The translations under genes were made by a program, and so were the position numbers. Of a DNA stretch of 64,000 bases, positions 1,249 to 52,090 are shown in pieces (positions within the stretch are counted from its first letter, which is position 1; every line of letters starts with the position of its first letter). The notes under the pieces were generated by a model. That model did not search any database. It had not been told where the DNA came from and saw nothing but the letters and a program-made list of their open reading frames with translations. The stretch comes from Candidatus Electryonea clarkiae (GTDB taxonomy: Bacteria > Electryoneota > Electryoneia > Electryoneales > Electryoneaceae): contig JAVCCM010000166.1 of assembly GCA_030765455.1 (NCBI GenBank), forward strand, positions 55,835-119,834, read 5' to 3'.

Positions 1249-1278
1249 AAACGCCGGATATGTAAAATATCCGGCGTT
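1249..1278 (-). terminator. hairpin aacgccggata-N7-tatccggcgtt downstream of the paralog A1 stop
   Basis: 11-bp perfect stem seen directly, located between the A1 stop (1311) and the tRNA. Confidence 0.45.
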
Positions 1279-1310: not shown

Positions 1311-4061
1311 TCATTTCACATACATCAACTTCCGTATTTCACGGAATCCGGTGTTTGAAGTTACGTTTAACAGGTATAATCCTGCCGGATGGTTGGTTGC
1401 GTTCCAGTTCAGGCGATGGTATCCGGCATTAAGGCTGCCATTATGTAAAGTTGCGACACTTTGACCAAGAACGTTAATGATTTCCGTATGCACCTCTGCA
1501 ATTTGCGGTACAGCTAAAACAACACTGACCGTAGGATTGAAGGGATTCGGATAAGTTGCAGCGACAGCCCACTCGGTCGGGATACCTGAAAATTCACGGT
1601 CACCTACTAAAGTTATATCCCAGATTACCTCAACTTCATTTGATTCAGGTGTTTCACCCTCATCGTAAATTGCTGTAACAGCATATACATAGGTGTATGA
1701 CTCATACTCACCGGGATTGGGATCTTCAATTTTCTCATTCCATGAGTTTTGCTGAGTATTACCGATATGTTCATCGTCACGGTAAATCTTGAACCTGACA
1801 AAGTCATCGAGATGTTCATGTGTCCATGAAAGTGTCACCTCAAGTTGAAGTGGATCACCGGGAACCACCTCCTGGGCAGAGGTTAAATCAGATGGCGCGT
1901 CAATATTGATCCTTTCGATATCCGCCTGGTCGTTCGGGATGAGTCGTAGCCCCTGGCGTGAAAGACTGATTACACCGGTGAATGTTCCCCAATCATCAGC
2001 TGAGAAAGCGGATAGGTCGAGGTTCGCTGTCCCTGTTATCTGGACTTCACATTGACCGGAGCCGTCATTAACTACCAGTGAATAAGTACCATCTCCGGGA
2101 TCACGGTTAATCTGTCCGTTGATCTGCGCCCAGGTTCCTTCACGTTGACCGTTTGTGCTCATGTCACCGGTAGGCTCCACCAACGGTTCTGGCAAAGCAT
2201 TGTCGTTGCTGGTAACAGTAATCTCGAAATTCGTAATCCTGGTAATATCATCAACATCCAGAAGATAGCCGACAACCTCAACTGCATCGCCGCGCATTAT
2301 TTCAGTCTCAGCATCCCAGGGTGCATCAGCCCATACCTGGATACCCCAATCGGAATCGTCCTGAATGTAGATATTTGTGTGAGATGTGTCTGTAAGGTTA
2401 GTTCCCTGGGTAACAATGCCGGTCGTCAAGACCCATGTCTCAGGATCCTGTGTAGTCTGGAGTTGTTCAACAGTACGCTCGAAAATGGGTGTTAGCTCAA
2501 AATCCCGAACATTCTCACGTGTATGACTAATCGTAACATTTTCTGTATCGGAAGGAGCGTAACCGGCAAGACTGGCGACAACTCCGAAAGTTTCACCACT
2601 GTGCAATGCCAGGGCTATATAACTACCAAGATCATCAGTTTGAACTTCCCGAACAGTATCACCCAACTCATCAATCACGACAATATCTACGCCTACTAAT
2701 ACTTCCTCGGTGATCTCGTCTATGACATTTCCAGTCAGATCGCCGGACAGGATATCGATTGCAAAATCAAGCTCAGTGTCACCATCTTCTACCTCGAGAG
2801 TATCCAGGTATTCGAAATATCCCTCTGCTTCAATTAATAGCTCATTCGTCCCAGCTCGCATATCGATAAACTCATAAAGTCCATCTTCATCGGAGGTATC
2901 TATTTGGACACTCCAACTGATGACGGCGCCTGCAACCGGTTCTTCAGTTTCAGAATCGTAAATAATACCACTCATGGTAGCGAGAGGAGTAATCTCGATA
3001 TCAATATCGTTTTCCCCAGTTTCAATTTCTACTACTGCACTGTAGGGATAATAATGCTCTTTCCGGACTCCTATAACCATATTGTCACCGGACATTGCTT
3101 CTTCAACTAAATAATTACCATCATCATCAGTAGTTACAGGTGCTGAAAGCAGTATGGCAACAGTAGCCTCTGCCACGCCATCGCCTGTCTCGGAATCAGT
3201 CACGGTTCCGGATACAGATGCATCACGTTCCATCCCTCCGGTGTAATAAAGAATAGCGGATTCTGCATCAGGCATCTCATTAGTGTTATTAAATGCGTAT
3301 TCGAGACCATCGGTACCGTTCGAGTTTTCAATACCAATAGTACAGCTTGTCATATCAATATTATTATCAAACGACTGGTACTGCATTGTGATAAAACCGT
3401 TTTCATAAAGAATTATCTCGCAGTTAAGAGAGCCGTTTCCTAATTCACGATAATCCACAAGCTGAACAATAAGTGTATTGTCACCTATAGTTTGATAGAA
3501 TGCTTCTCCATTGGTGCCACTGTCAGGATTCATGTCGTCCCAGAAATAGAAGATACAGTTGTTTGGAGTACCTGCAGACGGGATAGTTTCATTTGAATAA
3601 TCATATCTTTGATCATTAAAACTGATATGACCATTAGAATCAAAGCGGAACTGGGTATATTCATTGTCATAATATGGGAATGTAAATCCTACATTATATG
3701 GTCCGACGACAATGTCATCGCTCAAGCCCAATATCTCCGTACCGGTTTCGCTGATGTCAACCCACTCATAGATGGGACCGCCATCCTCTTCGCTGTCAAT
3801 AAAATAATAGCCATAATCGTCAGGACCGCCCGTTCTGTCAAGTTCACCATAGGTGCCCTGTGATGGATCACGGATTAATCCTTCAGCTTTGAGTAGTTGC
3901 CTCTGGCTGTCGTTAATTACTTGTCCGCTCTCAAAAGCGGCTTTTGCATTTTCAACAGCTTGATAATACTTCGCTTTTTCAGGACTCATCTCAGATGCAA
4001 AACCAGTTGATACTAACATTACTGCTAAAAAAAGAGAAAGAATCCAATACAGATTCTTCAT
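1311..4061 (-). CDS. T9SS-sorted large secreted protein, paralog A1 (signal peptide; NIDO-like FPYY...SNG motif; carboxypeptidase-regulatory-like beta-sandwich; FN3-like region; T9SS CTD)
   Basis: Strong RBS GGGAGGAAAACATG. The N-terminus MKNLYWILSLFLAV is a signal peptide. The C-terminal approx. 450 aa are approx. 90% identical to A3 and A4. The CTD reads YPNPFNPTVSV...GLYLLNV...KLMYVK. Confidence 0.85.
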   Translation of the reverse strand: MKNLYWILSLFLAVMLVSTGFASEMSPEKAKYYQAVENAKAAFESGQVINDSQRQLLKAEGLIRDPSQGTYGELDRTGGPDDYGYYFIDSEEDGGPIYEWVDISETGTEILGLSDDIVVGPYNVGFTFPYYDNEYTQFRFDSNGHISFNDQRYDYSNETIPSAGTPNNCIFYFWDDMNPDSGTNGEAFYQTIGDNTLIVQLVDYRELGNGSLNCEIILYENGFITMQYQSFDNNIDMTSCTIGIENSNGTDGLEYAFNNTNEMPDAESAILYYTGGMERDASVSGTVTDSETGDGVAEATVAILLSAPVTTDDDGNYLVEEAMSGDNMVIGVRKEHYYPYSAVVEIETGENDIDIEITPLATMSGIIYDSETEEPVAGAVISWSVQIDTSDEDGLYEFIDMRAGTNELLIEAEGYFEYLDTLEVEDGDTELDFAIDILSGDLTGNVIDEITEEVLVGVDIVVIDELGDTVREVQTDDLGSYIALALHSGETFGVVASLAGYAPSDTENVTISHTRENVRDFELTPIFERTVEQLQTTQDPETWVLTTGIVTQGTNLTDTSHTNIYIQDDSDWGIQVWADAPWDAETEIMRGDAVEVVGYLLDVDDITRITNFEITVTSNDNALPEPLVEPTGDMSTNGQREGTWAQINGQINRDPGDGTYSLVVNDGSGQCEVQITGTANLDLSAFSADDWGTFTGVISLSRQGLRLIPNDQADIERINIDAPSDLTSAQEVVPGDPLQLEVTLSWTHEHLDDFVRFKIYRDDEHIGNTQQNSWNEKIEDPNPGEYESYTYVYAVTAIYDEGETPESNEVEVIWDITLVGDREFSGIPTEWAVAATYPNPFNPTVSVVLAVPQIAEVHTEIINVLGQSVATLHNGSLNAGYHRLNWNATNHPAGLYLLNVTSNTGFREIRKLMYVK

Positions 4062-4293
4062 GTTTTCCTCCCGATCAAAATTAAAATTAATGTGAAATAA
4101 ATCTCAAAGCATCATGTATCCCAATAAGTATGTTCAGAACCGAAATTTCCTATCATATAAAAATAGTATCATGGTTCTTGATATACAATACCAAGCTGAA
4201 AATTTCTCCATTGGAAATAGTCAGATAGAACACAAGAGCGCCGACACAAAATACTGGTGCTCAAATGTCGAAAACATGAAAAACTTAATGTTT

Positions 4294-7035
4294 TTATTTG
4301 ATATACATCAACTTACGTATATCAGAGAATCCGTAATTGGAGGATACCCTGAGGAAATACAACCCAGCCGGATGGTTGGTTGCATTCCAGTTAAGCCGAT
4401 GGTATCCAGGCGTAAGGCTGCCCTGCTGGAGAATCGCGACATGTTGACCAAGAATGTTTATGATATCGGTTTGGACTTCTTCGATGTGAGGAACCGCGAC
4501 CACAATGCTCACCATGGGGTTGAACGGATTTGGATATATTGCTTCAAGCGCCCATTCAGTCGGAACACCAGACCACGGGATATCTTTAACAGAATCATAA
4601 GGCCAAATTACTTCAACCTCATTTGATTCCTCGGTTTCGCCTTCATCATAAACTGCTGTGACGATATAAAACCAAGTGTAAGGTGAGTATTCGCCTGGGT
4701 CTGGCTCAGTAATGTATTCTGTCCATGTAGGTTGCTCAGAATTACCCACATGTTCATCGTCACGATATATCTTAAATCTAATAAAATCATCAAGATTCTC
4801 ATGTGACCAGTTCAAGGTGACTTCAAGTTGTAAAGTATCACCTTCTATTAACTCGGTAGTTGCATACAAATCCGTTGGGGCGTTAAGAGCAATCCTATCT
4901 ATGTCATCTTGATGATTTGGTATTATCCGTAATCCCTGGCGTGAAAGGCTGATGACGCCGGTAAATACTCCCCAGTCGTCTGCCACGAAACCTGAAAGAT
5001 CGAGGTTGGCTTCACCACTTATCCTGACTTCGCATTGCCCTGAACCGTCATCAACAACAAGAGTGTATGTTCCCTCTCCCGGAGGATCACGGTTGATCAG
5101 TCCCTTGATCTGTGCCCAGGTTCCTTCTCGCTCATCCATAGTACTCATGATCCCGGTAGAATCGGCAAGTGGGTCAGGTAAAGGAATATCGACATTGATA
5201 ATTTCATGATTGAAATTTATAAGTTGCGCAATATCACCAGATTCAACGTAATAACCGATAACTACCAGTTCATCGCCACGGTTGATATTTTGTTCAGGAT
5301 CCCAGGGATCATCATCCCAGAGCTGAATACCCCAGCCCGAATCATCCTGGATGTAAATGTTGGTATGCGCAGTATCGACGGAATTCGTTCCCTGGATAAC
5401 TATACCTGTTGTTTGAACCCAGGTTTCCTCTTCCTGTTCGTTCTGGATTTGTTCAATGGTGCGTTCGAAAACGGGAGTCAGTTCAAAATCCTCAGTGTTC
5501 TCACGTTCAAAACTGATTAATACCTCAGCAGTATCTGATGGTGCATATCCTGTCAAGCTTGCGATTAGCCTGTAGGTGACGTCGCTATGTAAAGCGGGGG
5601 CAATATATTCACCCAATTCATTAGTCTGAACCACCCTGTGAGTTTCACCTGTTTCTGAATTGATGCATTCAACGTTAGCTCCTTCGAGGACGTCCTCTGT
5701 GAGTTCATCAATTACAGTACCGGTCAGGTCGGCAGAGAGAAAATCTATGCCGATATCAGCCTCATTGTCACCATCCACAACCTCAAATGTTGAATCTGAA
5801 TAATCGAAATAATCTTCAGCAACAATCCTCAGTATGTTGATCCCGGTATTCAAATCGATCAATGAGTAATTACCTTCTTCATCAGATGTATCAACATCGA
5901 CTCCCCAGGTAAGTATTGCGCCATCAACAGGATCTTCAGTCTCGGAATCATAGATTATTCCACTAAGAGTCGCCATTGGAGTGATTTCAAAATCATAAGC
6001 ATTATCGCCGGGATCAATATCAATAAACTCAGTATAAACGTAATAATGTTCTTTGTGAATAGTCACTATCACATCTTCACCGGAACGTACCTCGTCAATA
6101 AAATAATTGCCGTCTTCATCAGTCGTATCAGGATCAGCGCCTACCATCCCGACTATAGCGCCTTCTATTTCATCCTCAGTTTCCGAGTCAATAACAGTAC
6201 CGGATACATTTGCATCTGGAAGTGGGAGGTAGATAGAAATTGCCAGTTCATCCGAGGGATAATTATTGGCGTTGTAATTGATTCGTAGTCCCACATTACC
6301 CTGGTGATTTTCTATCCCGATTGTATTGGAAGTCACAGTCATAGTTATTTCTTGATACTGGAACTTTATATGCCCGGTGGGATAAAGGATTACCTGCATA
6401 GTGATTGTTCCTGGACCGGTATGTCGAGCAACCTGGTGATATTGAATGGTCATATGAGTTTCATCACCTTCATAGTATATCTCACCGCCATCAGAGGGAT
6501 CCAGGTCATCCCAGAAAGGTGCAATCAGGTAATTGGGTGTGGGAGCATTGGGAATAATCTGATTTGTAAAACTGGTCCCCTGTCCCGATGAAAGGGCAAT
6601 AAATCCATTAGAGCACACCCAGAACCGGTCATAGACTCTTCCATAAAAAGGGAAATTAAAATCAAGGTTGAACGATCCTCGCGACTGGTCATCACCGGTT
6701 ATATTGCAATCATCACCTGTGTCTGAAATATCATTCCAATCGTACTCCGGACCGCCATCTTCGTTACTGTCAATGTAGCTGTAACCGAATGCATCAGGAC
6801 CTCCCATCCGGTCTAACTCATTATGTGATCTCTTAACAGTGCCCGGAATAATACCCTCAGCGATTAAAAGCTCTTCTTGAGCGATACTTATGGGCAATCC
6901 GTTTTCGAAAGCATATTTTGCTTTATCTATCTGCAAGTAATAATGATTCTTATCGATATAATCGTCAGAGCAGAATCCCGTTGACGTCATTATTAATAAA
7001 CAGCAAATTGTCAGTGCGAAACAATTTTTCAACAT
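4294..7035 (-). CDS. T9SS-sorted large secreted protein, paralog A2 (the most diverged member of family A)
   Basis: Same architecture as A1 (ELDRMGGPDAFGYSYIDSNEDGGPEYDWNDIS, FNFPFYG...SNG, conserved CTD). The ORF runs to 7092, but the ATG at 7035 (MLKNCFALTICCLL...) follows an AGGAT RBS and starts a signal peptide. Confidence 0.8.
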   Translation of the reverse strand: MLKNCFALTICCLLIMTSTGFCSDDYIDKNHYYLQIDKAKYAFENGLPISIAQEELLIAEGIIPGTVKRSHNELDRMGGPDAFGYSYIDSNEDGGPEYDWNDISDTGDDCNITGDDQSRGSFNLDFNFPFYGRVYDRFWVCSNGFIALSSGQGTSFTNQIIPNAPTPNYLIAPFWDDLDPSDGGEIYYEGDETHMTIQYHQVARHTGPGTITMQVILYPTGHIKFQYQEITMTVTSNTIGIENHQGNVGLRINYNANNYPSDELAISIYLPLPDANVSGTVIDSETEDEIEGAIVGMVGADPDTTDEDGNYFIDEVRSGEDVIVTIHKEHYYVYTEFIDIDPGDNAYDFEITPMATLSGIIYDSETEDPVDGAILTWGVDVDTSDEEGNYSLIDLNTGINILRIVAEDYFDYSDSTFEVVDGDNEADIGIDFLSADLTGTVIDELTEDVLEGANVECINSETGETHRVVQTNELGEYIAPALHSDVTYRLIASLTGYAPSDTAEVLISFERENTEDFELTPVFERTIEQIQNEQEEETWVQTTGIVIQGTNSVDTAHTNIYIQDDSGWGIQLWDDDPWDPEQNINRGDELVVIGYYVESGDIAQLINFNHEIINVDIPLPDPLADSTGIMSTMDEREGTWAQIKGLINRDPPGEGTYTLVVDDGSGQCEVRISGEANLDLSGFVADDWGVFTGVISLSRQGLRIIPNHQDDIDRIALNAPTDLYATTELIEGDTLQLEVTLNWSHENLDDFIRFKIYRDDEHVGNSEQPTWTEYITEPDPGEYSPYTWFYIVTAVYDEGETEESNEVEVIWPYDSVKDIPWSGVPTEWALEAIYPNPFNPMVSIVVAVPHIEEVQTDIINILGQHVAILQQGSLTPGYHRLNWNATNHPAGLYFLRVSSNYGFSDIRKLMYIK

Positions 7036-7282
7036 ATCCCTAATCCTCAAACATTGAAAACAATAGGTTGCACCATGAAATAAGTAATGCAATAATCATC
7101 ATATTAATAATATATAATTAAACAACCTTGAAAACCAAAAAAATCCAGGAGTTTTTGAGATAAAAAGAAAAACCACGAAGCAAACGGAGAATTCGCGAAG
7201 GACACTAAGAAGTTCTTTGTGATCTTTGCGGCTGCTTTGTGCTCTCTGTGGTTAGAGAAAAACCAGGAACACTCCAGGAATG

Positions 7283-7311
7283 AAAAAACGCCGGTCAACC
7301 TGTGACCGGCG
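7283..7311 (-). terminator. rho-independent terminator of paralog A3 (cgccggtca-N5-tgaccggcg plus a T-run on the minus strand)
   Basis: 9-bp GC-rich stem with an A6 run on the plus strand immediately 5' of it (a T-run on the coding strand), 40 nt after the A3 stop. Confidence 0.55.
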
Positions 7312-7351
7312 CTATGAGTACACTTAAAATTAGTTGTTATTTCAAGTACTA

Positions 7352-10300
7352 CTATTTTATAAACATTAGCTTTCGCACTTCGGCAAATCCGGCGTTGGTT
7401 GTAATTTTCAAGAAATAAAGACCGGTTGGATTACCTGTAGCATTCCATCCAAAACGATGATAAGCAGCGCCCAATTCTCCGTTATGCAGGACATTTACCC
7501 TCCGCCCAAGGATATCGATTATCTCGGCAGTCACGTTTGAGGTCTGCGGGACACCCAAAATTACATGAAGTGTCGGGTTGAATGGATTTGGATATACCGC
7601 TTCCAGAGCCCATTCAGTCGGGATTCCGGAATATGGACGTTCATGAACTAAGGTAATATCCCATATAACCTCAACTTCATTTGATTCAGGTGTTTCACCC
7701 TCATCGTAAATTGCTGTAACAGCATATACGTAGGTGTAAGAAGCAAATTCACCGGGATTGGGATCTTCAATTTTCTCATTCCAGGAGTTTTGCTGGGTGT
7801 TACCGATATGTTCATCATCACGGTAGATCTTGAACCTGATAAAATCATCAAGGTGATCATGTGCCCACGAAAGTGTTACATCAAGTTGAAGCGGATCGCC
7901 GGGAACCACCTCCTGCTCAGAAGTCAAATCAGAGGGAGCGTTTATGTTAATCCGTTCAATATCAGCCTGATCGTTCGGGATGAGTCGCAGCCCCTGGCGT
8001 GACAGACTGATTACACCGGTGAAGGTTCCCCAATCATTTGCTGAGAAAGCGGAAAGGTCAAGGTTAGCTGTCCCTGATATCTGGACTTCGCATTGACCGG
8101 AGCCATCATTCACTACTAGTGTATAAGTACCATCTCCCGGATCACGGTTAATCTGTCCATTGACCTGTGCCCAGGTTCCTTCACGTTGACCGTTTGTACT
8201 CATGTCACCGGTAGGCTCCACCAATGGTTCAGGTAACTGATGATCGCTGCTGATAACCTCGATCTCGAAATTTGTAATCCGGGTAATATCATCCACTTCT
8301 ATTAAATACCCGACAATTTCGACTGAATCACCGCGCACGATTTCAGCCTCGGCATTCCAGGGAGCATCATCCCAGACCTGGATACCCCAATCGGAATCGT
8401 CCTGAATGTAGATGTTAGTATGTGCTGTGTCTGTCACATTCGTGCCCTGGGTGACTATGCCGCTTGTCAAAACCCAGGTTTCAGTATCCTGTTGAGTCTG
8501 CAAATACTCGTTATCACGAGTGAATATAGGCGTCAATTCGAAGTCACGGACATTCTCACGATTATAGCGAATTGTGACAGTTGCCGTATCGGAATTCGCA
8601 TATCCGTTTGCTGAAGCAACAACTAAATACCTGACACCATCATGCAGGGCAAGCGCAGTGTATTCACCAAGCTCGTTGGTCTGGACTTCACGATAAACTT
8701 CATCCATGTTTGCCGGATCAAAACATTGTATGGTAGCGCCGATAAGCAATTCTTCGGTCATCTCATCTGCAATGACTCCTGTCAATGGACCACTGAGAAT
8801 ATCTATCTCGAGATCAATAGTATTGTCACCCGCCTCTATGACCGTATCTTCCATCAGATATTCAAAATAACCTTCATGTTCAATTGTAATTGTATAGTTG
8901 CCGGAATGAATATCTTCAATTGAATAGTTCCCTGATGTGTCGGTCATTGCATCAAAATCAAGGATGTTATCTATATTGTCGAAATGGACGATCACGCTAT
9001 CCAATGGATCCTCTGTCTCTGAATCAATAACCGTCCCGGATACCGAGGCGTCGGAAGGATCGAGATATACGGTAAAATCATCGAAAGTCACGCCGGCATA
9101 ACTGGTTCGAGCGTTGGATGTAAAATTGAACATGAACCACGCGGTTTCACCCTCATATTCAGACAGGTCATAACCAATATAAACCCACTGAGAATCACCT
9201 GTTGTGCCGTTAAAGCAAGGTTGGTTTCCGTTGTCTATGTTACCATTTTCGTCTGTATAATCATCAACCGGTTCGAGCAGATCCCAGGTATCACGATCAT
9301 CTATGGATATCCAGAAATTGTAACCGTCATTTATATCCAGTATATAATACCAGTGCCAGTATCCAACAAAAGCATCAGGCGTGCTGATATCCCAGGTTGT
9401 GGCTGTAAATAATGTGTCCCTGTCGGTTAAACCATAGTTACCACCAATATTTGTTGCCCAGGCAAAGTCACCGGAATGGGCGTCACCGGGTTGAAGCGAT
9501 GGTTCGCCCCACTCCCATAATCTTGCGGAACCGGCTGTCATGAAGAAACCGCGATCATCCTCGAAATCTTCTTCATAGGTTTCATCCTGGGGTGGAGGTA
9601 ATGGGTCCATCTCTACATCGTACGTATTTTCTCCTTCGTCTAATAGAACCTGGTCAAGGAATAGAAAATATCCATCTACGGAAACACCTACATCAAGATC
9701 AAGTCCTGAATATGTTTCATCAATGGAATAATTACCATTACCATCAGTTACATCAGTCCATTGACTGATTCTGACATTAGCGCCTGCAATGGCAGCCCCG
9801 GTTACAGCATCTGTAACAGTACCGGAAACACTTGCATCCGGATCAGGAAGAAATATTCGAATCGCTAATTCCTCAAATGGATAATTGCCCTGATTATAAT
9901 TAATACTAAGCCCTATTGTGCCACTACTATTTTCAATACCTATAGTATTACTATTATCAGGGATCGTAAGCTCTTCATATTGCAAGATAATTTCACCATT
10001 GGGATATAGTATAACCTGGCAGGTGATAACACTATCGTTGAAACTAATATGTCGACAATCATCATATTGGATGACCATTTGAGTTTCATCGCCTTCATAG
10101 TACACTTCGCCACCTCCCGGAGGATAAAGATCATCCCAGAAAGGAGCTATCATATAATTAGGAGCAGCAGTGCTTGGGATAGCTAGATTTGAATATGCTT
10201 GTCCCTGTCCGGTTGCCAGGCTAATCCAGCCATTTGAGCAAACCCAGAATTGATCATAAATATCACCGTAAAATGGGAAATCAAAGTCAATATCAAATGG

Positions 10301-10660
10301 TCCAACATTGTGATCATCATTATTTACACCACAATCTGTTCCGGTATCGCTGATATCAACCCAATCATATTCAGGTCCGTTCTCTTCGTCACTGTCGATA
10401 AAGGAGTATCCGAAATCATCAGGTCCTCCAGACCTGTCAAGTTCATCATAGGTGCCCTGCGATGGATCTCGGATTAGTCCTTCGGCTTTGAGTAATTGCC
10501 TTTGACTATCACTAATTACTCGTCCACTCTCAAAAGCAGCTTTTGCGCTTTCAACAGCTTGATAATACTTCGCTTTTTCAGGACTCATCTCAGATGTAAA
10601 TGCCGTTGATACAAAGAAAACCATTAAAAAAAGCGAAAGAATCCAATTTAGATTCTTCAT
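7352..10660 (-). CDS. T9SS-sorted large secreted protein, paralog A3 (carries an extra approx. 270-aa central insertion and a divergent CTD)
   Basis: RBS GGGAGGAAAACATG is identical to that of A1. The N-terminal 100 aa and the approx. 400 aa before the CTD are near-identical to A1 and A4. The CTD (LHVILGVPQTSNV...KLMFIK) differs. Confidence 0.85.
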   Translation of the reverse strand: MKNLNWILSLFLMVFFVSTAFTSEMSPEKAKYYQAVESAKAAFESGRVISDSQRQLLKAEGLIRDPSQGTYDELDRSGGPDDFGYSFIDSDEENGPEYDWVDISDTGTDCGVNNDDHNVGPFDIDFDFPFYGDIYDQFWVCSNGWISLATGQGQAYSNLAIPSTAAPNYMIAPFWDDLYPPGGGEVYYEGDETQMVIQYDDCRHISFNDSVITCQVILYPNGEIILQYEELTIPDNSNTIGIENSSGTIGLSINYNQGNYPFEELAIRIFLPDPDASVSGTVTDAVTGAAIAGANVRISQWTDVTDGNGNYSIDETYSGLDLDVGVSVDGYFLFLDQVLLDEGENTYDVEMDPLPPPQDETYEEDFEDDRGFFMTAGSARLWEWGEPSLQPGDAHSGDFAWATNIGGNYGLTDRDTLFTATTWDISTPDAFVGYWHWYYILDINDGYNFWISIDDRDTWDLLEPVDDYTDENGNIDNGNQPCFNGTTGDSQWVYIGYDLSEYEGETAWFMFNFTSNARTSYAGVTFDDFTVYLDPSDASVSGTVIDSETEDPLDSVIVHFDNIDNILDFDAMTDTSGNYSIEDIHSGNYTITIEHEGYFEYLMEDTVIEAGDNTIDLEIDILSGPLTGVIADEMTEELLIGATIQCFDPANMDEVYREVQTNELGEYTALALHDGVRYLVVASANGYANSDTATVTIRYNRENVRDFELTPIFTRDNEYLQTQQDTETWVLTSGIVTQGTNVTDTAHTNIYIQDDSDWGIQVWDDAPWNAEAEIVRGDSVEIVGYLIEVDDITRITNFEIEVISSDHQLPEPLVEPTGDMSTNGQREGTWAQVNGQINRDPGDGTYTLVVNDGSGQCEVQISGTANLDLSAFSANDWGTFTGVISLSRQGLRLIPNDQADIERININAPSDLTSEQEVVPGDPLQLDVTLSWAHDHLDDFIRFKIYRDDEHIGNTQQNSWNEKIEDPNPGEFASYTYVYAVTAIYDEGETPESNEVEVIWDITLVHERPYSGIPTEWALEAVYPNPFNPTLHVILGVPQTSNVTAEIIDILGRRVNVLHNGELGAAYHRFGWNATGNPTGLYFLKITTNAGFAEVRKLMFIK

Positions 10661-10833
10661 GTTTTCCTCCCGTTCTAATTAAAATAAATGTGAAAAATAT
10701 CTAAAAGCATCACTTAAACCCGTATATATGTCCAGTCAATAAAGTTTTGATCCTTTAAAAATAATAACAAGGTATCGGATATACAACACCAATCTGTAAA
10801 TATCTACACTGAAAAAATGTTTAAATTTAGAGT

Positions 10834-10864
10834 AAAAAAAGCGCCGGCAATGAAATACCGGCGC
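10834..10864 (-). terminator. rho-independent terminator of paralog A4 (gcgccgg-N10-ccggcgc plus a T-run)
   Basis: 7-bp GC stem preceded on the plus strand by an A7 run, 35 nt beyond the A4 stop. Confidence 0.5.
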
Positions 10865-10897
10865 CTTATAATGTAAAAATGGAAAGCTTAATTTTTA

Positions 10898-13369
10898 TTA
10901 TTTAATATACATCAACTTACGTATGTTGGAGAATCCGCTATTTGAGGATACTCTGAGGAAATACAATCCAGCCGGGTGGTTGGTCGCATTCCAGTTCAGG
11001 CGATGATATCCAGGCGTAAGGCTCCCCTGCTGGAGAACAGCAACACGTTGTCCAAGAACGTTTATAATTTCAGCCTGAACTTCTGCGATTTGCGGAACCG
11101 CTATCACAATACTCACTGTCGGGTTGAACGGATTTGGATATACCGCCTCCAAAGCCCAGTCAATCGGGACGCCTGAGAATTCACTGTCACTTACTGAGGT
11201 TATGTCCCAGATTACCTCAACCTCGTTTGATTCAGGTGTTTCACCTTCATCGTAAACAGCGGTTACTGTATATACATATGTATAAGATGCATATTCACCG
11301 GGATCGGGATCTTCAATTTTCTCATTCCACGTGTTTTGCTGGGTATTGCCGAGATGCTCGCCGTCACGGTAAATCTTGAAACGAATCCAATCATCAAGAT
11401 GATCATGTGCCCATGAAAGCGTTACCTCAAGTTGAAGCGGATCGCCTGGAATCACCTCCTGAGCAGAAGTCAAATCAGATGGTGCGTCGATGTTGATTCT
11501 TTCAATATCCGCTTGGTCATTCGGGATAATTCGCAGTCCCTGGCGTGAAAGACTGATTATACCGGTAAAGGTTCCCCAATCATCCATAGAAAAAGCGGAT
11601 AAATCAAGGTTTGCTGTTCCCACTATCTGGACATTGCATTGACCGGAGCCATCGTCAACAATCAGAGTATAGGTATCATCTCCAGGATCACGGTTAATCT
11701 GTCCACTCACCTGTCCCCAAGTCCCTTCACGTTGACCGTTTGTGCTCATGTCACCGGTTGGCTCCACCAGTGGTTCAGGCAATGCATTGTCGTGACTGAA
11801 AACCTCGATCTCGAAATTTGTGATCCGGGTAATATCGTCAACATCCAAAAGATACCCGACAACTTCGACTGAATCGCCGCGCATGATTTCAGTGTCCTCA
11901 GCCCAAGGTGCATCAGCCCATATCTGGATACCCCAGTCGGAATCGTCCTGAATGTATATATTTGTGTGTGCTGTGTCGGTTACATTAGTTCCCTGGATAA
12001 CAATACCGGTCGTCAAGACCCAGGTTTCAGGGTCCTGTGTAGTCTGGAGTTGTTCAATAGTGCGCTCGAAAATGGGTGTGAGCTCAAAATCCCGCACATT
12101 CTCACGTGAATGACTGATTGTAACATTCTCTGTATCGGAAGGAGCGTAACCGGCAAGACTGGCGACAACTCCGAAAGTTTCACCACTGTGCAATGCCAGG
12201 GTTATATAATTACCAAGATCATCAGTTTGAAGTTCCCGAACAGTTTCACCCAACTCATCAATCACGACAATATCTACGCCTACTAATACTTCCTCGGTAT
12301 TCTCATCTATGACATTTCCAGTCAAATCGCCGGAAAGGATATCGATCTCGAAGTTAAACTCGTTTTCTCCGGTCTCAATTTCTACACCTTCCTCCTCGAA
12401 CTCAAAGTATCCTTCCATTTCGATGCTAAAAGTGTAAATTCCACTGTAAACTTCGTCAACTGAATAAACGCCGTCGCCATCAGTAGTTTCTTCATATATA
12501 CCGAACGTTACTATAGCGCCTTCAACAGGATCACCGGTTTCCGAATCAGTGACAACTCCGGCAACACTTGCGTCTGCATCAGCAGCGTAAAAGAGTACTG
12601 CTAATTCGTTTTCTGGCGCGTCCGGATCACCATTGACAAGATAGGCTAACGCTACGTCATGATCATGGTTTTGAATACCGATTGTTTGGGAATTGTTACG
12701 GAAATCGTCTGTGATATTGTCATACATTAATATAATATCACCATCATCAAACATAATAATTTCACAATCGAAAGTTCCATTAGCGCCGAATTGAGCGTAA
12801 TCAGTCATACTGATTACCAATGCCTCGCGCTCGTCTATTTCTATAGTATCGTAATAAACAGCTCCGTCACGAGGATGCATATCATCCCAGAACCAGAAGA
12901 TCGTGGCACCCCAGGCAGTATGTGGTAAATTACCATTTCCATAAGTACAATAAGTACTGAAAAAGGTAACCATTCCGTTCGACTGAAACCAGAAATCGTC
13001 TTCGAGCACACCATAAAATGGGAAATCGAAGCCAAAATCATACGGACCAGTGACGGTATCGTCACCAATGCCTGTCATCAGAGTGCCGGTGTCGGTAATA
13101 TCAATCCATTCATATTCCGGACCACCTTCCTCATTGCTGTCAATAAACATCATACCGAGGTCATCAGGTCCACCTGTTCGGTCAAGTTCATTGTAAGGTA
13201 TCGTATTCCTTACAGCATCCTCTTCAATGAGAGTCTTCTGAGCGTCTGTTAATTGCACTCCGGTTCCCTCGATTCGCTTCGCTTCCATAAGAGCTTCATA
13301 ATCAAAAGCAAATCCGGATGATACCAGGATCAGCAAACATGAAGCCAAAATTAATGTCTTTCTTAACAT
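10898..13369 (-). CDS. T9SS-sorted large secreted protein, paralog A4
   Basis: RBS AAGGAG and signal peptide MLRKTLILASCLLILVSSGFA. The C-terminal approx. 480 aa are approx. 90% identical in protein to A1, with up to approx. 97% nucleotide identity over several hundred bases. Confidence 0.85.
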   Translation of the reverse strand: MLRKTLILASCLLILVSSGFAFDYEALMEAKRIEGTGVQLTDAQKTLIEEDAVRNTIPYNELDRTGGPDDLGMMFIDSNEEGGPEYEWIDITDTGTLMTGIGDDTVTGPYDFGFDFPFYGVLEDDFWFQSNGMVTFFSTYCTYGNGNLPHTAWGATIFWFWDDMHPRDGAVYYDTIEIDEREALVISMTDYAQFGANGTFDCEIIMFDDGDIILMYDNITDDFRNNSQTIGIQNHDHDVALAYLVNGDPDAPENELAVLFYAADADASVAGVVTDSETGDPVEGAIVTFGIYEETTDGDGVYSVDEVYSGIYTFSIEMEGYFEFEEEGVEIETGENEFNFEIDILSGDLTGNVIDENTEEVLVGVDIVVIDELGETVRELQTDDLGNYITLALHSGETFGVVASLAGYAPSDTENVTISHSRENVRDFELTPIFERTIEQLQTTQDPETWVLTTGIVIQGTNVTDTAHTNIYIQDDSDWGIQIWADAPWAEDTEIMRGDSVEVVGYLLDVDDITRITNFEIEVFSHDNALPEPLVEPTGDMSTNGQREGTWGQVSGQINRDPGDDTYTLIVDDGSGQCNVQIVGTANLDLSAFSMDDWGTFTGIISLSRQGLRIIPNDQADIERINIDAPSDLTSAQEVIPGDPLQLEVTLSWAHDHLDDWIRFKIYRDGEHLGNTQQNTWNEKIEDPDPGEYASYTYVYTVTAVYDEGETPESNEVEVIWDITSVSDSEFSGVPIDWALEAVYPNPFNPTVSIVIAVPQIAEVQAEIINVLGQRVAVLQQGSLTPGYHRLNWNATNHPAGLYFLRVSSNSGFSNIRKLMYIK

Positions 13370-15316: not shown

Positions 15317-15638
15317 AGTAAAAACTTACAAAAAGTATCAGGGCAGGTCAAGCCCTGAACGGAAAAGAAAACTGTTTTCATAAAAAAGATGCCATATTTG
15401 TTGATAACGCTGTTATTGCTCTTTCCATTTCTTCTTCAGGCTTAAGAAACAGAGTGCGATGAACAATTCCACAGCATATCCAAAACTCTTCAATGCGCAC
15501 TCAGAGTATAAAAATTCGAGATCAATAATGAAAGCGCTGGATGGATTTATGTGAGAAAGTCATATTTGACTGCTTGCTTTATCTTGGAGTAAAATTCTAT
15601 ATTATGCAAAACATTTGAGTTTATACAAGGGGAAAGAC

Positions 15639-16490
15639 ATGAGTCAGGCACGGTTATTAAAAATTTGCTTGATTATTGGGTTTGTTTTTGGAATAATAGT
15701 CTTTCAGGGCTGTGAAGAAAAGGATAATTTTGATCCGGCAGACTTATTTTCATTAAAAGACTTTGCTGATGATGGTGATTATTTCATTTCCTTTCTCGAT
15801 ATGATGGATCGTTTTCGGGAAGCTCACAAAATTACTGTTTCCTATCTTGGGGGTACTGAACGATCAATTGATTTTGATGAATTCTTACCCGACGGCTGGC
15901 AGGAATCTGCTGTGTTACCCGGCTGGTATCAGAGAACCTCTGCTGATGCATCTGATGAATTTATAAGATTTGATCATAGTATCACGGCGCCTGATGAAAT
16001 AAAACCTGTGAAAGGCGAGTATTTCAGATTTAACCTGGATAGCCTCAGTGTTGGAACCTACGCGGCATTTGGTGACTCCTTCTCGGTTATCTATGCTGAA
16101 AATGGCAGAAACATTACTGTCCTTGAGGGAGAAGCTTCATATATAGATACCAGGGTATTATTCCGTGGCTCAGGCGGTGTTGGCAACTTCTCCGGCGCTG
16201 CGGGAATGTTTAATGTCTGGAATGCGAAATTTGAGAATCTATCAGCAGAACCCGGACTCCTCGCAGGGCAACACCGGATTGAAGGGGTTACCCAGATCAA
16301 TGACCTGAATGACGAGATCGATTTAGACGTGGTTATCAACCTGAATATGCGGGCAAATTCATCCGGAGAAGCGACCATTTGGGTAGAAGGAATAAAGCGA
16401 GTAGAAATTGATTTCAGTGGATACGATGTACATTTTCGCGGCAAGGTTAGCTTGGCAATGGATGATTTCGAACGTGAATATAATTTCTGA
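15639..16490 (+). CDS. hypothetical lipoprotein
   Basis: The ATG at 15639 follows AAGGGGAAAGAC. Lipobox-like IVFQGC. The ORF track begins earlier, at a TTG. Confidence 0.5.
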   Translation: MSQARLLKICLIIGFVFGIIVFQGCEEKDNFDPADLFSLKDFADDGDYFISFLDMMDRFREAHKITVSYLGGTERSIDFDEFLPDGWQESAVLPGWYQRTSADASDEFIRFDHSITAPDEIKPVKGEYFRFNLDSLSVGTYAAFGDSFSVIYAENGRNITVLEGEASYIDTRVLFRGSGGVGNFSGAAGMFNVWNAKFENLSAEPGLLAGQHRIEGVTQINDLNDEIDLDVVINLNMRANSSGEATIWVEGIKRVEIDFSGYDVHFRGKVSLAMDDFEREYNF

Positions 16491-20720: not shown

Positions 20721-21632
20721 TTAATGAGATATGCTAAAACTAATCCAGTCATTCATTGTATCATAATATTCAGTTAATCCCAAACGCTGCGGGATATCTG
20801 TATGTCCCGCGCCGGGGATCAGTACCAGTCTTTTCGGTTCCGGGGCGTTTTCATATACGATCTTGCCATTGTCACGATAACGGACAAAATCATCTTCATC
20901 GCCGTGAAAGATCATGAATGGTACATGGATATTTTTTATGCGCTCGGCGTTATTGAACTCGCCTTCAGTCAACCAGCGATGAGGGACATCAATGATTGAG
21001 GAGCCTTGCGTCAGAGAAGTTGCAGCAGCAAATAGAGCTTCGGCAAAGAGACAGAGGGGGTCGATCTTCTCCGCAGTTAGATATATCGAAACAACATTAC
21101 CTAATGAAAATCCATAAACGATAAGCGAATCAGCCGTAACCTCATTGCGGCTGAGAACATAATCGAGAGCGGCAGTGCCATCGGAGTATAGACCATCTTC
21201 GGACGATTCTCCATCCGATTTACCGAAACCACGGTAGTCATAAATAAACAGGTTCACACCGAAATCATGGAGGAACATGACACGGTCCCAGTAGTGATCG
21301 ATATTGTGTTTATTACCGTGACAATAGAGGATGGTCAAACCTGACCGGTCGCCGTTTGAACCAACCCAGAAACCGTGCAGGGTGTTTCCATCACTGTCAA
21401 GCATGACCTCTTCGATCAATGATTCAGGAATGGTGTTACCGGGAAGTGAATACTCATCAAGCTCTTCCGAATTAAATAGAAAACTGTCGAGTTTCATACA
21501 ACTCGTCGATATGAAGCATGACAGCAGAATACATGAGAGTATCAAGGATCTGTTTGGCGATCTTTGCCCCTTTGCGCCTTTGCGTGAGAAATGTTTTATT
21601 GTTTTTTTCATCGAAACACCTAAAAATTCCAT
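20721..21632 (-). CDS. alpha/beta-fold serine hydrolase (dienelactone-hydrolase/S9-like), probably secreted
   Basis: Nucleophile elbow GFSLG and ...HGDEDDFV... The start is uncertain because a CTTTGCG repeat motif lies inside the 5' end of the ORF. Confidence 0.65.
   Translation of the reverse strand: MEFLGVSMKKTIKHFSRKGAKGQRSPNRSLILSCILLSCFISTSCMKLDSFLFNSEELDEYSLPGNTIPESLIEEVMLDSDGNTLHGFWVGSNGDRSGLTILYCHGNKHNIDHYWDRVMFLHDFGVNLFIYDYRGFGKSDGESSEDGLYSDGTAALDYVLSRNEVTADSLIVYGFSLGNVVSIYLTAEKIDPLCLFAEALFAAATSLTQGSSIIDVPHRWLTEGEFNNAERIKNIHVPFMIFHGDEDDFVRYRDNGKIVYENAPEPKRLVLIPGAGHTDIPQRLGLTEYYDTMNDWISFSISH
21561..21590 (+). repeat. CTTTGCG direct-repeat motif copy B (tctttgcc-cctttgcg-cctttgcg-TGAGAA)
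   Basis: Read directly. Lies inside the 5' end of ORF 20721-21632 (see findings). Confidence 0.6.
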
Positions 21633-22294
21633 TCAAGTGCAATCAGGGGAGCAATAGCGCCATAACCGGCGATACCGGTATATGTAACCGCAAGCTGATC
21701 ACTTCTGATATTTGCGCCTTGCCATTTGATTTCGGTGTACAGCTTGAAACGATTCCCAAGTGCCCACCTGTACCCGGCAAATGGTGAAGTCATGTAAAAT
21801 GATGCGTCTTCATCGTAGTCAGGACGAGTAGTCGGGATAACCAGGTTCATACCGGTGTAAACTGAGTTCTTTCTGTGCTGCCAGGCAGCGGAACCGGTGA
21901 GAATCGGAACAAAACGAAACCTCTCTTCAACTCCTTCTTTGACACTCATGAAAGTCATTATTCTCGGTTGAATCCCTACAGTCGGAGTTCTCCCATCACC
22001 GATTATTGGATACCATGTCGATCCAAGATCGAAACCGGTTATCCCGTAGGGGAGTGGAAGGATGTGCAGGTTTGCATCGAAATCAAGGTCGTCCCGCAGT
22101 CCGTACCTCGAACCCAAAACGGGCCACGGTGTGGGCATATTTAGACCGAATACCTTAATAATCGGTCCACCATAGCTGACATTACCCTGCCATTCTCCTT
22201 TACCAACAGGCTGGAGGTTGGTATGAGCAGCGCACCCAATGTACAACATTATTAAAATAATAGAGATAAGAAGTATATAGATTCTTGTTTTCAA
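21620..22294 (-). CDS. hypothetical outer-membrane beta-barrel-like lipoprotein (224 aa)
   Basis: Signal/lipobox MLYIGC, alternating hydrophobic pattern and a C-terminal ...EWNF (terminal Phe). Confidence 0.45.
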   Translation of the reverse strand: MKTRIYILLISIILIMLYIGCAAHTNLQPVGKGEWQGNVSYGGPIIKVFGLNMPTPWPVLGSRYGLRDDLDFDANLHILPLPYGITGFDLGSTWYPIIGDGRTPTVGIQPRIMTFMSVKEGVEERFRFVPILTGSAAWQHRKNSVYTGMNLVIPTTRPDYDEDASFYMTSPFAGYRWALGNRFKLYTEIKWQGANIRSDQLAVTYTGIAGYGAIAPLIALEWNF

Positions 22295-24535: not shown

Positions 24536-24620
24536 TTTTCCCCTCCAGATTAATCTCGTAACGTATAATTGAAATTGAATATGTAGTTAAATACTATAAT
24601 CTATTTGAATATGATAATTC

Positions 24621-26795: not shown

Positions 26796-26868
26796 CTCCT
26801 CTATTCAGGGCGAACTGTAAAACAGAGAAAGGCTTTACGATTCATCACACATCCAATATCGTAAAATT

Positions 26869-28851: not shown

Positions 28852-28953
28852 AATGCCCTCAAAACTTAATGAAACAAGAAAATGTTCAGCTTCACGCTTT
28901 GAATCTCTGCGCAAGACAATTTTTTCGAAAACAAAACAGCAAAGAATTTTTTC

Positions 28954-29000
28954 CTCACGCAAAGTCGCAAAGGCAAAACATAAGGTCGCAAAAAAAATCC
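28954..29000 (-). repeat. CTTTGCG direct-repeat motif copy F (reverse orientation; its 42-nt core is near-identical to copy E)
   Basis: ctCACGCAAAGtCGCAAAGGcaaaacataaggtCGCAAAAAAAAtcc. 100-150 nt upstream of the C2 start and just 3' of C3. Confidence 0.6.
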
Positions 29001-29032
29001 TGTAAATCTTGTTAATCCTGTCCGATCCCATC

Positions 29033-51696: not shown

Positions 51697-51971
51697 TTTC
51701 GGCTCCTTTTTGAATAATGTAAATTCTTATGTATAAAATATGTGGTTTATCTGTGTGATCTCTATTTGAGCTAATTCCTTATCAATTCCACGTCATTACA
51801 AGCAAAGCGAAGCAATCCCATAAAACATATATCTGGTGTATCATTAAAGCTAAGGGCAGACGTGTGTTGTTTCAAGAGAAATGGTAAAATAAAGGTATTT
51901 GTTTTGTTTCCGGTATTACAGACAGTTTTTGCTCTCTGCGGGAATATTTACTAATGGTTCATTGTACATAA

Positions 51972-52069: not shown

Positions 52070-52090
52070 ACAATACAACTGCTATCAAAC

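What the first reader, a model, noticed from the sequence alone, without database searches (positions are those of the whole stretch)
1311..13369. Tandem array of four mosaic T9SS-cargo paralogs: conserved N- and C-terminal modules, hypervariable middle
Four consecutive minus-strand genes (A1-A4) each encode a 820-1100-aa secreted protein. All four share the same first approx. 100 aa (signal peptide plus EMSPEKAKYYQAVE...ELDR.GGPD...FIDS...GP.Y.W.DIS). Three of them (A1, A3, A4) share an almost identical last approx. 400-480 aa; A2 is collinear but more diverged. The central 300-600 aa differ completely in length and sequence, including an approx. 270-aa insertion in A3. At nucleotide level, segments such as 2480-2760 versus 12070-12350 are approx. 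97% identical, and longer stretches at approx. 1630-2480, 7630-8480 and 11220-12060 are near-identical direct repeats. Constant flanks with swappable cores is the layout of loci that diversify surface proteins by gene conversion or cassette recombination, and it also gives ample homology for deletion and duplication. No T9SS cargo variation system of this type is known to me. Each member carries its own RBS, signal peptide, CTD and terminator, so all four look expressible rather than being silent cassettes.
Basis: seen in the sequence. Interest (0 to 1): 0.7.

Follow-up and report, generated by a model that had tools for sequence, protein, structure and literature searches.

The report
Tandem mosaic T9SS surface-protein paralogs
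Four neighbouring genes of an uncultured Antarctic-lake bacterium encode related secreted surface proteins that exchanged gene segments long ago; this is an ordinary expanding gene family, not an active system for varying the cell surface.

Summary
The four minus-strand genes are real. They are A1 1311-4061, A2 4294-7035, A3 7352-10660 and A4 10898-13369, in the MAG 'Candidatus Electryonea clarkiae' from Ace Lake. All four are collinear T9SS cargo with the same order of parts: signal peptide, NIDO-like domain, 2-3 CarboxypepD_reg domains (A3 also has a MAM-like insert), tandem OB folds, Fn3 and a type-A CTD.

The mosaic is real. Quartet topologies change along the genes (chi2 80.8, p 3e-12). 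Synonymous divergence within a single gene pair runs from 0.16 to saturation. Breakpoints fall at domain borders. One homology block spans a gene junction.

Only A1 and A3 share the first ~100 aa. The "near-identical" blocks are 82-86% identical, and the best 281 nt reach 94%. The "hypervariable" middle is a homologous domain at 40-55% aa identity, with domain gain and loss.

Nothing indicates active variation:
- The longest exact repeats are 73 bp or shorter.
- The youngest tract is already about 7% diverged.
- Four further contigs from three other assemblies are 100% identical to the window.
- No ≥90%-identical variant of A1-A4 exists among about 15 billion proteins.
- The window holds no silent cassettes, recombinase, reverse transcriptase or invertible promoter.

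The genome carries at least 18 paralogs with the same C-terminal module. The closest known analogue is domain shuffling among P. gingivalis rgpA, kgp and hagA.

The parts
10898..13369 (-). A4 (823 aa, MDP8208771.1). Signal peptide, NIDO-like domain, 2 CarboxypepD_reg, tandem OB, Fn3, T9SS type-A CTD. This is the minimal architecture of the four.
7352..10660 (-). A3 (1102 aa, MDP8208770.1). Same architecture, with an extra insert between CarboxypepD_reg repeats. Its CTD belongs to the P0003/P0004 subfamily.
9041..9547 (-). A3-specific insert (aa ~372-540), a MAM/InhA-like jelly-roll (weak Pfam hit, E 0.002). By eye, a comparable segment is present in the distant homologue P0012, so it may be ancestral rather than newly inserted.
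4294..7035 (-). A2 (913 aa from the ATG at 7035, MDP8208769.1). The most diverged member. Its NIDO hit is above the Pfam cut-off (30.4 vs 25 bits).
1311..4061 (-). A1 (916 aa, MDP8208768.1). NIDO-like domain 3207-3851; three CarboxypepD_reg 2487-3206; tandem OB 1908-2474; Fn3 1617-1907; CTD 1314-1568.
2320..2759 (-). Youngest conversion tract, A1 copy. It is 93% identical over 440 nt to A4 11907-12346, and dS is 0.16 over aa 438-530. Identity drops sharply to 50-60% upstream of 2759, which is the start of the third CarboxypepD_reg domain ('DILSGDLTG').
11907..12346 (-). Youngest conversion tract, A4 copy.
1566..2459 (-). OB-OB-Fn3 block of A1. It is 85.9% identical over 894 nt to A3 7607-8500 and about 83-84% to the A4 equivalent. 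This is the region of concerted evolution among A1, A3 and A4 (dS 0.5-0.9).
3736..4843 (-). Junction-spanning homology block, copy 1. It comprises the A2 CTD, the A2-A1 intergenic region (terminator-like hairpin, promoter region, RBS) and the first ~320 nt of A1. It is 76% identical over 1119 nt to 10335-11447.
10335..11447 (-). Junction-spanning homology block, copy 2. It comprises the A4 CTD, the A4-A3 intergenic region and the first ~320 nt of A3.
10838..10867 (-). Intrinsic-terminator-like hairpin after A4 (12-bp stem, T run).
7287..7313 (-). Intrinsic-terminator-like hairpin after A3.
1250..1278 (-). Hairpin after A1 (AACGCCGGATAT-TTTACA-TATCCGGCGTT) with a weak T tail. Read by eye; the scan did not call it.

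Best explanation
This is a tandem array of four independently expressed paralogs from a large family of T9SS-secreted, strongly acidic, modular cell-surface proteins. The host is 'Candidatus Electryonea clarkiae' (phylum Electryoneota, FCB group; anoxic zone of Ace Lake, Antarctica). The family has at least 18 members in this genome.

Shown:
- Every family member ends in the same C-terminal module: CarboxypepD_reg repeats, tandem OB folds, Fn3 and a type-A CTD.
- The members carry different N-terminal heads. In A1-A4 the head is a ~200-aa all-beta NIDO-like domain. In dispersed paralogs it is an S8 peptidase, an FG-GAP propeller or another head.
- The paralogs later exchanged segments. The breakpoints that were mapped lie at or near predicted domain borders.
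- The exchanged tracts have since diverged under purifying selection.
- The locus is stable in today's population.

Inferred:
- The array grew by tandem or segmental duplication, including a two-gene unit or a junction-spanning tract.
- The exchange mechanism was RecA-type non-allelic recombination, meaning gene conversion or unequal crossing-over.
- The C-terminal module acts as a display stalk and anchor.
- After Sec export and T9SS translocation, the CTD is removed and the protein is attached to the cell surface or released.
- The head domains and OB folds bind extracellular ligands of unknown nature. Nucleic acid is unlikely, given the net charges of -17 and -8 on the two OB folds.
- Having four diverged heads broadens binding specificity. 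It is not a switching mechanism.
For: Gene models and domains. Organism and accessions; PMC9324843.

Family size and alternative heads. A second tandem pair lies elsewhere in the genome (P0079 directly follows another family CTD).

Recombination:
- Sliding-window identity switches partner along the genes, and the same happens family-wide.
- Quartet-topology heterogeneity gives chi2 80.8, p 3e-12, with 0 of 2000 permutations as extreme.
- dS within single gene pairs ranges from 0.16 to saturated.
- There is a sharp breakpoint at a domain border.
- One homology block spans a gene junction and includes promoter and RBS.

Age and stability:
- The longest exact matches are 73 bp or shorter.
- In the youngest tract, 20 of 31 mismatches fall at third codon positions and show no adenine bias.
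- Four further contigs from three other assemblies are 100% identical.
- The 90%-identity clusters hold a single sequence version for each of A1-A4. Apparent variants in the four other family clusters with more than one member listed were only start-codon or truncation differences.

No specialised machinery: no recombinase, reverse transcriptase or transposase in the window, and no promoter-flanking inverted repeats.

Structure:
- The N-domain model has pLDDT 90.7.
- The C-module model has pLDDT 79 and matches tandem-OB proteins (HIN-200, POT1) plus Fn3.
- Sampled homologues hit PF01336.

Charge. Other T9SS paralog sets in the same window show that this is a genome-wide habit.
Against: - No expression, localisation or ligand data exist. 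'Surface binding protein' rests only on domain composition and the CTD.
- T9SS machinery genes were not looked for, and none lie in the window.
- All comparison assemblies come from one lake population and are consensus sequences. Rare recombinants would not be seen.
- Three assemblies break inside A1, right at the A1/A4 tract, although no exact repeat longer than 73 bp exists. Only one contig joins the two A1 halves. Minor-population hybrids are therefore not excluded.
- No orthologous array from a sister species was found, so the order and timing of the events are not calibrated.
Confidence: 0.82

Rival explanations
1. Active surface-variation locus. Ongoing gene conversion or cassette recombination among the four genes, and the dispersed paralogs, continually generates new chimeric surface proteins within the population.
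For: - The mosaic structure and recombination breakpoints are real.
- The array and the dispersed paralogs provide homology.
- Contigs of three assemblies break at the A1/A4 tract without a long exact repeat. Population heterogeneity could produce that.
Against: - The shared tracts are 3-18% diverged with dS 0.16-0.95.
- The few exact stretches of 30 bp or more are short, at most 73 bp.
- There is no variant in any other assembly or in about 15 billion proteins.
- All copies are complete and have their own expression signals, so there is no donor/expression-site asymmetry.
- No dedicated recombinase or cis element was found.
Confidence: 0.08
2. The mosaic reflects differential purifying selection on an old gene family, with no recombination. 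Conserved blocks are simply the more constrained domains.
For: - The conserved blocks coincide with structural domains (OB-OB-Fn3).
- dN is low there, at 0.04-0.07.
Against: - Synonymous divergence varies more than 10-fold within one gene pair, for example A1-A4 at 0.16 in aa 438-530 against saturation upstream.
- The nearest neighbour changes from block to block and includes dispersed paralogs.
- Topology heterogeneity has p 3e-12.
- Homology extends through non-coding intergenic DNA.
Confidence: 0.04
3. Assembly artefact. The apparent chimeras, especially A1, result from mis-joining of paralogous reads in a MAG contig.
For: - Only the 163.6-kb source contig joins the two halves of A1.
- Three other assemblies break at window 2614-2751, next to the A1/A4 tract.
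Against: - A2, A3, A4 and both halves of A1 are each reproduced at 100% identity in other assemblies.
- The two A1 half-contigs of assembly 3300025642 end facing each other with a 6-nt overlap (2746-2751).
- Their outer flanks match the window on both sides.
- The joined ORF is intact and collinear with its paralogs.
- The mosaic in A2-A4 does not depend on that join.
Confidence: 0.04

Closest known systems
Porphyromonas gingivalis rgpA / kgp / hagA cleaved-adhesin-domain family (Dashper et al. 2017, PMC5266723)
   Same: - Both are T9SS cargo genes (signal peptide plus CTD) that share modular non-catalytic domains between paralogs.
- Both show domain rearrangement and gene conversion between paralogs that produces mosaics.
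- In both, repeats between paralogs break short-read assemblies.
   Different: - In P. gingivalis the repeats are identical within and between genes, the loci are dispersed, variants differ between strains, and the heads are proteases.
- Here the shared blocks are 82-97% identical and the four genes lie in tandem.
- No variant is seen among the assemblies.
- The heads are NIDO-like domains, and the shared module is CarboxypepD_reg / OB-OB / Fn3 rather than CADs. There is no sequence homology to CADs.
Programmed antigenic variation by gene conversion (Neisseria pilE/pilS, Borrelia vlsE/vls cassettes, Anaplasma msp2); from general knowledge
   Same: Multiple related coding segments for a surface protein sit in one region, and non-reciprocal segmental exchange is the diversifying process.
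   Different: - Those systems have one expression site plus promoterless, truncated silent cassettes.
- Their conserved flanks are nearly identical, and variants arise at high frequency within a population.
- None of these features is met here.
Concerted evolution / birth-and-death of tandem bacterial multigene families by non-allelic homologous recombination (general concept; e.g. interlocus gene conversion reviews PMC10503786, PMC3966223 listed; only their abstracts were seen)
   Same: Tandem paralogs, patchy homogenisation, dS heterogeneity, and hybrid genes with duplicated junctions as expected from unequal crossing-over.
   Different: Nothing essential. This is the category the locus falls into.
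NIDO domain (Pfam PF06119; nidogen, MUC4, alpha-tectorin, SNED1)
   Same: - A2 scores above the Pfam gathering threshold, and A3 just below it.
- Many bacterial homologues carry precomputed PF06119 hits.
- It is an extracellular all-beta domain of unknown function.
   Different: - A1 and A4 are not detected by the Pfam model.
- The bacterial version occurs 1-6 times per locus and is fused to S8 or C25 peptidases, dockerins and T9SS CTDs.
- No solved structure resembles the model.
Tandem OB-fold proteins (HIN-200 domains, POT1; PF01336-type OB folds of secreted nucleases)
   Same: - The predicted fold of aa 530-718 is two consecutive OB barrels.
- Homologues hit PF01336, and one (P0067) is fused to an S1/P1 nuclease domain below the Pfam cut-off.
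   Different: - The matches are fold-level only (10-13% identity, TM about 0.4).
- The domains here are strongly acidic (net -17 and -8), which argues against nucleic-acid binding.

Membership tests
T9SS type-A cargo | C-terminal sorting domain matching TIGR04183 / PF18962 above the curated cut-off | tested here: met
   All four genes: PF18962 scores 32-35 bits against a cut-off of 27, and TIGR04183 scores 29.7-36.1 against 23.
T9SS type-A cargo | N-terminal Sec signal peptide | tested here: inconclusive
   A hydrophobic N-terminus followed by ...STGFA/SE-type sites is seen by eye in all four. No signal-peptide predictor was available.
T9SS type-A cargo | T9SS machinery (SprA/Sov, PorK-N, PorV, PorU) encoded in the genome | not tested
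   None is in the 64-kb window, and the rest of the MAG was not searched. Twelve CTD proteins in one window make a functional T9SS likely.
Programmed gene-conversion antigenic variation (pilE/pilS, vlsE type) | One expression locus plus silent, promoterless or truncated donor cassettes | tested here: not met
   All four are full-length ORFs with an RBS, long upstream intergenic regions (232-380 nt) and terminator-like hairpins.
Programmed gene-conversion antigenic variation (pilE/pilS, vlsE type) | Near-identical conserved segments flanking the variable segments, to support frequent recombination | tested here: not met
   The best block is 93% identical over 440 nt, and the others are 76-86%. 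Exact matches are 73 bp or shorter. The 5' and 3' blocks are shared by different gene pairs.
Programmed gene-conversion antigenic variation (pilE/pilS, vlsE type) | Sequence variants of the expressed gene within or between populations | tested here: not met
   Four further contigs from three other assemblies are 100% identical. Each protein is the only full-length sequence in its 90% cluster among about 15 billion proteins. The limit of this test is that it sees consensus sequences from one lake only.
Paralog family shaped by interlocus gene conversion or unequal crossing-over | Phylogenetic incongruence between adjacent gene segments | tested here: met
   Topology counts differ between blocks, for example 1/20/4 in aa 1-95 and 1/2/28 in aa 438-530. 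Overall chi2 is 80.8, p 3e-12, with 0 of 2000 permutations as extreme.
Paralog family shaped by interlocus gene conversion or unequal crossing-over | Tracts of reduced synonymous divergence within otherwise saturated gene pairs | tested here: met
   For A1-A4, dS is 0.16 in aa 438-530 against saturation in aa 96-437. For A1-A3, dS is 0.50 in aa 621-815 against saturation in aa 96-280.
Invertible-promoter or shufflon phase variation | Inverted repeats flanking a promoter or gene segment, plus a site-specific recombinase nearby | tested here: not met
   Only short, imperfect, scattered inverted repeats were found. No recombinase domain occurs in any ORF of 150 aa or more in the window.
Diversity-generating retroelement target | A reverse transcriptase plus a TR/VR pair that differs at adenines | tested here: not met
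   There is no reverse transcriptase in the window. Mismatches in the A1/A4 tract show no adenine bias, and 20 of 31 fall at third codon positions.
NIDO domain (PF06119) | Score above the Pfam gathering threshold (25 bits) | tested here: inconclusive
   A2 scores 30.4 (met) and A3 scores 21.8 (below). A1 and A4 are not detected, although they are clearly homologous to A2 and A3. The domain is therefore called 'NIDO-like'.

The most novel reading that the evidence does not exclude
The recombination may still be running at low frequency. Minor subpopulations of Ca. Electryonea clarkiae would then carry A1/A4 or other inter-paralog hybrids or copy-number variants. That would explain why three short-read assemblies break exactly at the A1/A4 tract without a long exact repeat. 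On this reading, the ≥18-member family with a common 'CarboxypepD_reg / OB-OB / Fn3 / CTD' stalk works as a combinatorial head-swapping system for T9SS surface proteins in a free-living FCB bacterium.
Probability: 0.1. Interest if true: 0.6.

Novelty: new member of a known kind. Interest (0 to 1): 0.27.

Why it matters
The locus documents how T9SS cargo repertoires expand in an uncultured FCB phylum. Three processes are visible: tandem duplication, reuse of one C-terminal display module under different heads, and occasional segment exchange at domain borders.

It also flags two widespread but uncharacterised extracellular modules:
- A NIDO-like domain that gives a confident predicted fold but has no solved structural relative.
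- An acidic tandem-OB unit found in about 3000 protein-cluster representatives.

It does not reveal a new variation mechanism. For annotation and binning, it is a concrete case where paralog tracts fragment short-read assemblies.

Tried and rejected
- Exact-peptide scan of GTDB species representatives for the locus found no Electryonea genome. The profile scan returned only distant N-domain relatives, so no orthologous array from a sister species could be compared.
- The metagenome scan returned only one informative contig, L003.
- A single-sequence word-index search with the N-domain gave 2 hits and was uninformative.
- A PDB sequence search found nothing significant.
- DNA or eDNA binding by the OB folds was considered because of the HIN-200 and POT1 matches and the nuclease-fused homologue. 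It was down-weighted because of the strong negative charge.
- DGR, invertible-promoter and mobile-element explanations were checked and rejected.
- Apparent multi-member 90% clusters of other family members were examined as possible strain variants. They turned out to be start-codon or truncation differences only.
- The first run of the recombination script timed out and was rerun.
Full report
**What is there.** The region holds four consecutive minus-strand ORFs:
- A1, 1311-4061, 916 aa.
- A2, 4294-7092 as a TTG ORF. The ATG at 7035 gives the 913-aa protein that NCBI annotates.
- A3, 7352-10660, 1102 aa.
- A4, 10898-13369, 823 aa.

Exact look-up identifies them as MDP8208768.1 to MDP8208771.1 of the MAG 'Candidatus Electryonea clarkiae', on a 163.6-kb contig. 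NCBI names them 'carboxypeptidase regulatory-like domain-containing protein'. The organism belongs to phylum Ca. Electryoneota (AABM5-125-24, FCB superphylum). It comes from the anoxic zone of Ace Lake, Antarctica, and has been described as a proteolytic heterotroph with many secreted S8 peptidases. That paper does not discuss T9SS or these proteins (PMC9324843).

The array lies in ordinary chromosomal context. miaA and lutABC sit upstream, and a fab operon, rnc, asd and gltX lie further on. No ORF of 150 aa or more in the 64 kb encodes a recombinase, transposase or reverse transcriptase.

**Architecture.** The four proteins are collinear over their full length. The order of parts is:
- a signal peptide;
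- a ~50-aa linker;
- a ~200-aa all-beta domain carrying the motifs GGPDxxGY..DS, P.Y.W.DI and FWDD;
- two (A4) or three CarboxypepD_reg Ig-like domains;
- a ~190-aa region;
- an Fn3-like domain;
- a Por_Secre_tail/TIGR04183 type-A CTD, above cut-off in all four.

A3 also has an insert of about 180 aa with a weak InhA-like MAM hit.

The N-domain is very widespread. More than 520 tblastn-confirmed stretches occur in GTDB species representatives of Cloacimonadota, Zixibacteria, Krumholzibacteriota, Calditrichota, Bacteroidota, Ignavibacteria and others. It often appears 2-6 times per locus and is fused to S8 or C25 peptidases or dockerins.

The ~190-aa region folds as two OB barrels followed by Fn3 (pLDDT 79). 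The top PDB matches are tandem-OB HIN-200 domains and POT1, plus Fn3 domains. An exhaustive profile search finds 2987 cluster representatives at E ≤ 1e-3. Sampled homologues hit PF01336.

The mature proteins are extremely acidic, with net charge -123 to -155. The OB folds themselves carry -17 and -8, while the CTD is basic. I therefore do not adopt nucleic-acid binding as the function.

**A large family.** The same C-terminal module (CarboxypepD_reg, OB-OB, Fn3, CTD) occurs in at least 18 proteins of the same MAG. These carry other heads, including S8 peptidase, FG-GAP propellers, MAM-like domains and unknown domains.

A fifth NIDO-headed member, P0079, sits on ~3-kb contigs immediately downstream of another family CTD. 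That makes a second tandem pair elsewhere in the genome.

The window itself contains 12 T9SS-CTD genes and two more paralog sets, B1/B3/B4 and D1/D2/D3. Local expansion of T9SS cargo genes is therefore a general habit of this genome.

- Only A1 and A3 share the first ~100 aa (84-86% nt identity). A2 and A4 are about 30-45% aa identical there.
- The 2480-2760 versus 12070-12350 comparison gives 94.3%, not 97%.
- The long 'near-identical' blocks are 82-85% identical.
- The longest exact matches are 73 bp (A1/A4) and 62 bp (A1/A3). A2 has none of 23 bp or more with any other copy.
- The 'hypervariable middle' is the homologous NIDO-like domain at 40-55% aa identity plus CarboxypepD_reg repeats. 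The length differences come from domain presence or absence.

**The mosaic is real and comes from recombination.** The nearest neighbour of each gene changes block by block:

| Region | Closest pair(s) | nt identity |
|---|---|---|
| 5' ~320 nt | A1~A3 | 84-86% |
| NIDO-like domain | A2~A3 | 58-71% |
| First two CarboxypepD_reg repeats | A1~A2 | about 60-69% |
| Third CarboxypepD_reg repeat | A1~A4 | 93-97% |
| OB-OB-Fn3 | A1~A3~A4 | 80-93% |
| CTD | A2~A4 | 81-85% |

The A3 CTD instead groups with the dispersed paralogs P0003 and P0004, at 82-86% aa against 56-62% to A1 and A4.

Counts of quartet-informative sites supporting the three possible topologies differ strongly between blocks. Chi2 is 80.8 with 12 degrees of freedom, p 3e-12. 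None of 2000 permutations was as extreme, and a PHI-like statistic is also significant.

Nei-Gojobori dS is saturated in most blocks but drops within single gene pairs:
- A1-A4, aa 438-530: 0.16.
- A1-A4, aa 531-620: 0.55.
- A1-A3, aa 621-815: 0.50.
- A1-A3, aa 1-95: 0.86.
- A2-A4, CTD: 0.95.

Protein-level constraint cannot produce this pattern.

The youngest tract (2320-2759 versus 11907-12346, 93% over 440 nt) has a sharp 5' edge at 2759. That position is the first codon region of the third CarboxypepD_reg domain. Its 31 mismatches fall mostly at third codon positions and show no adenine bias.

A 1.1-kb homology block (3736-4843 versus 10335-11447, 76%) runs from the CTD of the upstream gene, through the intergenic region with hairpin, promoter region and RBS, into the first 320 nt of the downstream gene. 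This is the footprint expected from duplication of a two-gene unit by unequal crossing-over. A junction-spanning conversion tract would leave the same footprint.

**No sign of an active variation system.** The tracts are old by bacterial standards, and even the youngest has about 7% nucleotide divergence. Four contigs from three other assemblies are 100.000% identical to the window over everything they cover:
- ENA ERZ27315495 k141_624289.
- JGI 3300025642 Ga0208648_1002379.
- JGI 3300025642 Ga0208648_1014185.
- JGI 3300005916 Ga0075120_10000132.

The 90%-identity clusters of A2, A3 and A4 contain a single sequence each among about 15 billion proteins. The A1 cluster contains only A1 and its two exact halves. 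Apparent variants in the clusters of other family members are only start-codon or truncation differences.

All four genes are complete and have their own RBS. A4 and A3 have clear terminators, and A2 and A1 have weaker hairpins. There is no expression-site/silent-cassette asymmetry, and no promoter-flanking inverted repeats exist.

**One loose end.** The other assemblies all break inside A1, next to the A1/A4 tract:
- L001 and L002 end at 2746.
- L087 starts at 2751.
- L003 ends at 2614, the edge of the 73-bp exact match.

Only the source contig joins the two halves. Repeat-induced fragmentation of a low-abundance genome is the simple explanation. The facing contig ends, the 6-nt overlap and the matching outer flanks support the join. 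Minor-population hybrids cannot be excluded without reads.

**Comparison with what is known.** The closest documented case is Porphyromonas gingivalis. There the T9SS cargo genes rgpA, kgp and hagA share adhesin domains, undergo domain rearrangement and gene conversion, and break short-read assemblies (PMC5266723). The phenomenon is therefore not new for T9SS cargo.

This locus differs from the P. gingivalis case in several ways. The genes are tandem, the shared module is unrelated, the tracts are much older, and no variant is seen among the assemblies.

It fails the defining features of programmed antigenic variation of the pilE/pilS or vlsE type, of invertible-promoter systems and of DGRs.

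**Verdict.** This is an ordinary tandem multigene family of T9SS surface proteins. It evolves by duplication, divergence and rare non-allelic recombination at domain borders, and it is stable in the sampled population. Novelty: a new member of a known kind. Interest is low to moderate, mainly for the uncharacterised NIDO-like and acidic tandem-OB modules and for the modular head/stalk logic of the family.

Noticed in passing
window 22427-31885 (-) and 49018-56829 (-): Two further sets of T9SS-CTD paralogs lie in the window. B1 22427-24535, B3 26869-29031 and B4 29033-31885 are 40-48% aa identical, and B2 24621-26795 is an LVIVD beta-propeller. D1 49018-51696 and D3 54124-56829 are 54% identical over their full length, while D2 52147-54012 (FG-GAP) shares only the last ~215 aa. 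In total there are 12 T9SS cargo genes in 64 kb.
   Followed up: partly
window 32249-35344 (+): A 1031-aa T9SS cargo protein that combines a Malectin domain, a CotH kinase domain, Lamin-tail domains and a CTD. A secreted CotH-type kinase in this phylum is unusual.
   Followed up: no
[not shown]
   Followed up: partly
window 2614-2751 (inside A1): Contigs of three other assemblies end here, at the edge of the A1/A4 conversion tract. The longest exact A1/A4 repeat is only 73 bp. The two A1 halves are joined only in the source contig.
   Followed up: partly
A1-A4 proteins (window 1311-13369): The mature proteins are extremely acidic (net charge -123 to -155), whereas the T9SS CTD is basic and cytoplasmic housekeeping proteins in the window are only mildly acidic. 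This suggests a polyanionic, possibly cation-binding, surface layer.
   Followed up: partly
L084-L086 (contigs Ga0208648_1017554, Ga0075120_10024499, k141_567289): A fifth NIDO-headed family member (P0079, 829 aa, MDP8205513.1) lies directly downstream of the CTD of another family member, on ~3-kb contigs in three assemblies. This is a second tandem arrangement.
   Followed up: partly
window 15615-16490 (+), 21620-22294 (-), 45260-46768 (+), 47217-47882 (+), 47932-48723 (+): ORFs of 220-500 aa with no Pfam hit at E ≤ 1e-3 (for 47217-47882, at the 1e-5 cut-off used).
   Followed up: no
window 9041-9547 (A3 insert) and protein P0012: By eye, a segment comparable to the A3 MAM-like insert sits at the same position in the distant homologue P0012 (1169 aa, source organism not named). 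The longer A3 architecture may therefore be ancestral, and the shorter genes would be deletion derivatives.
   Followed up: no
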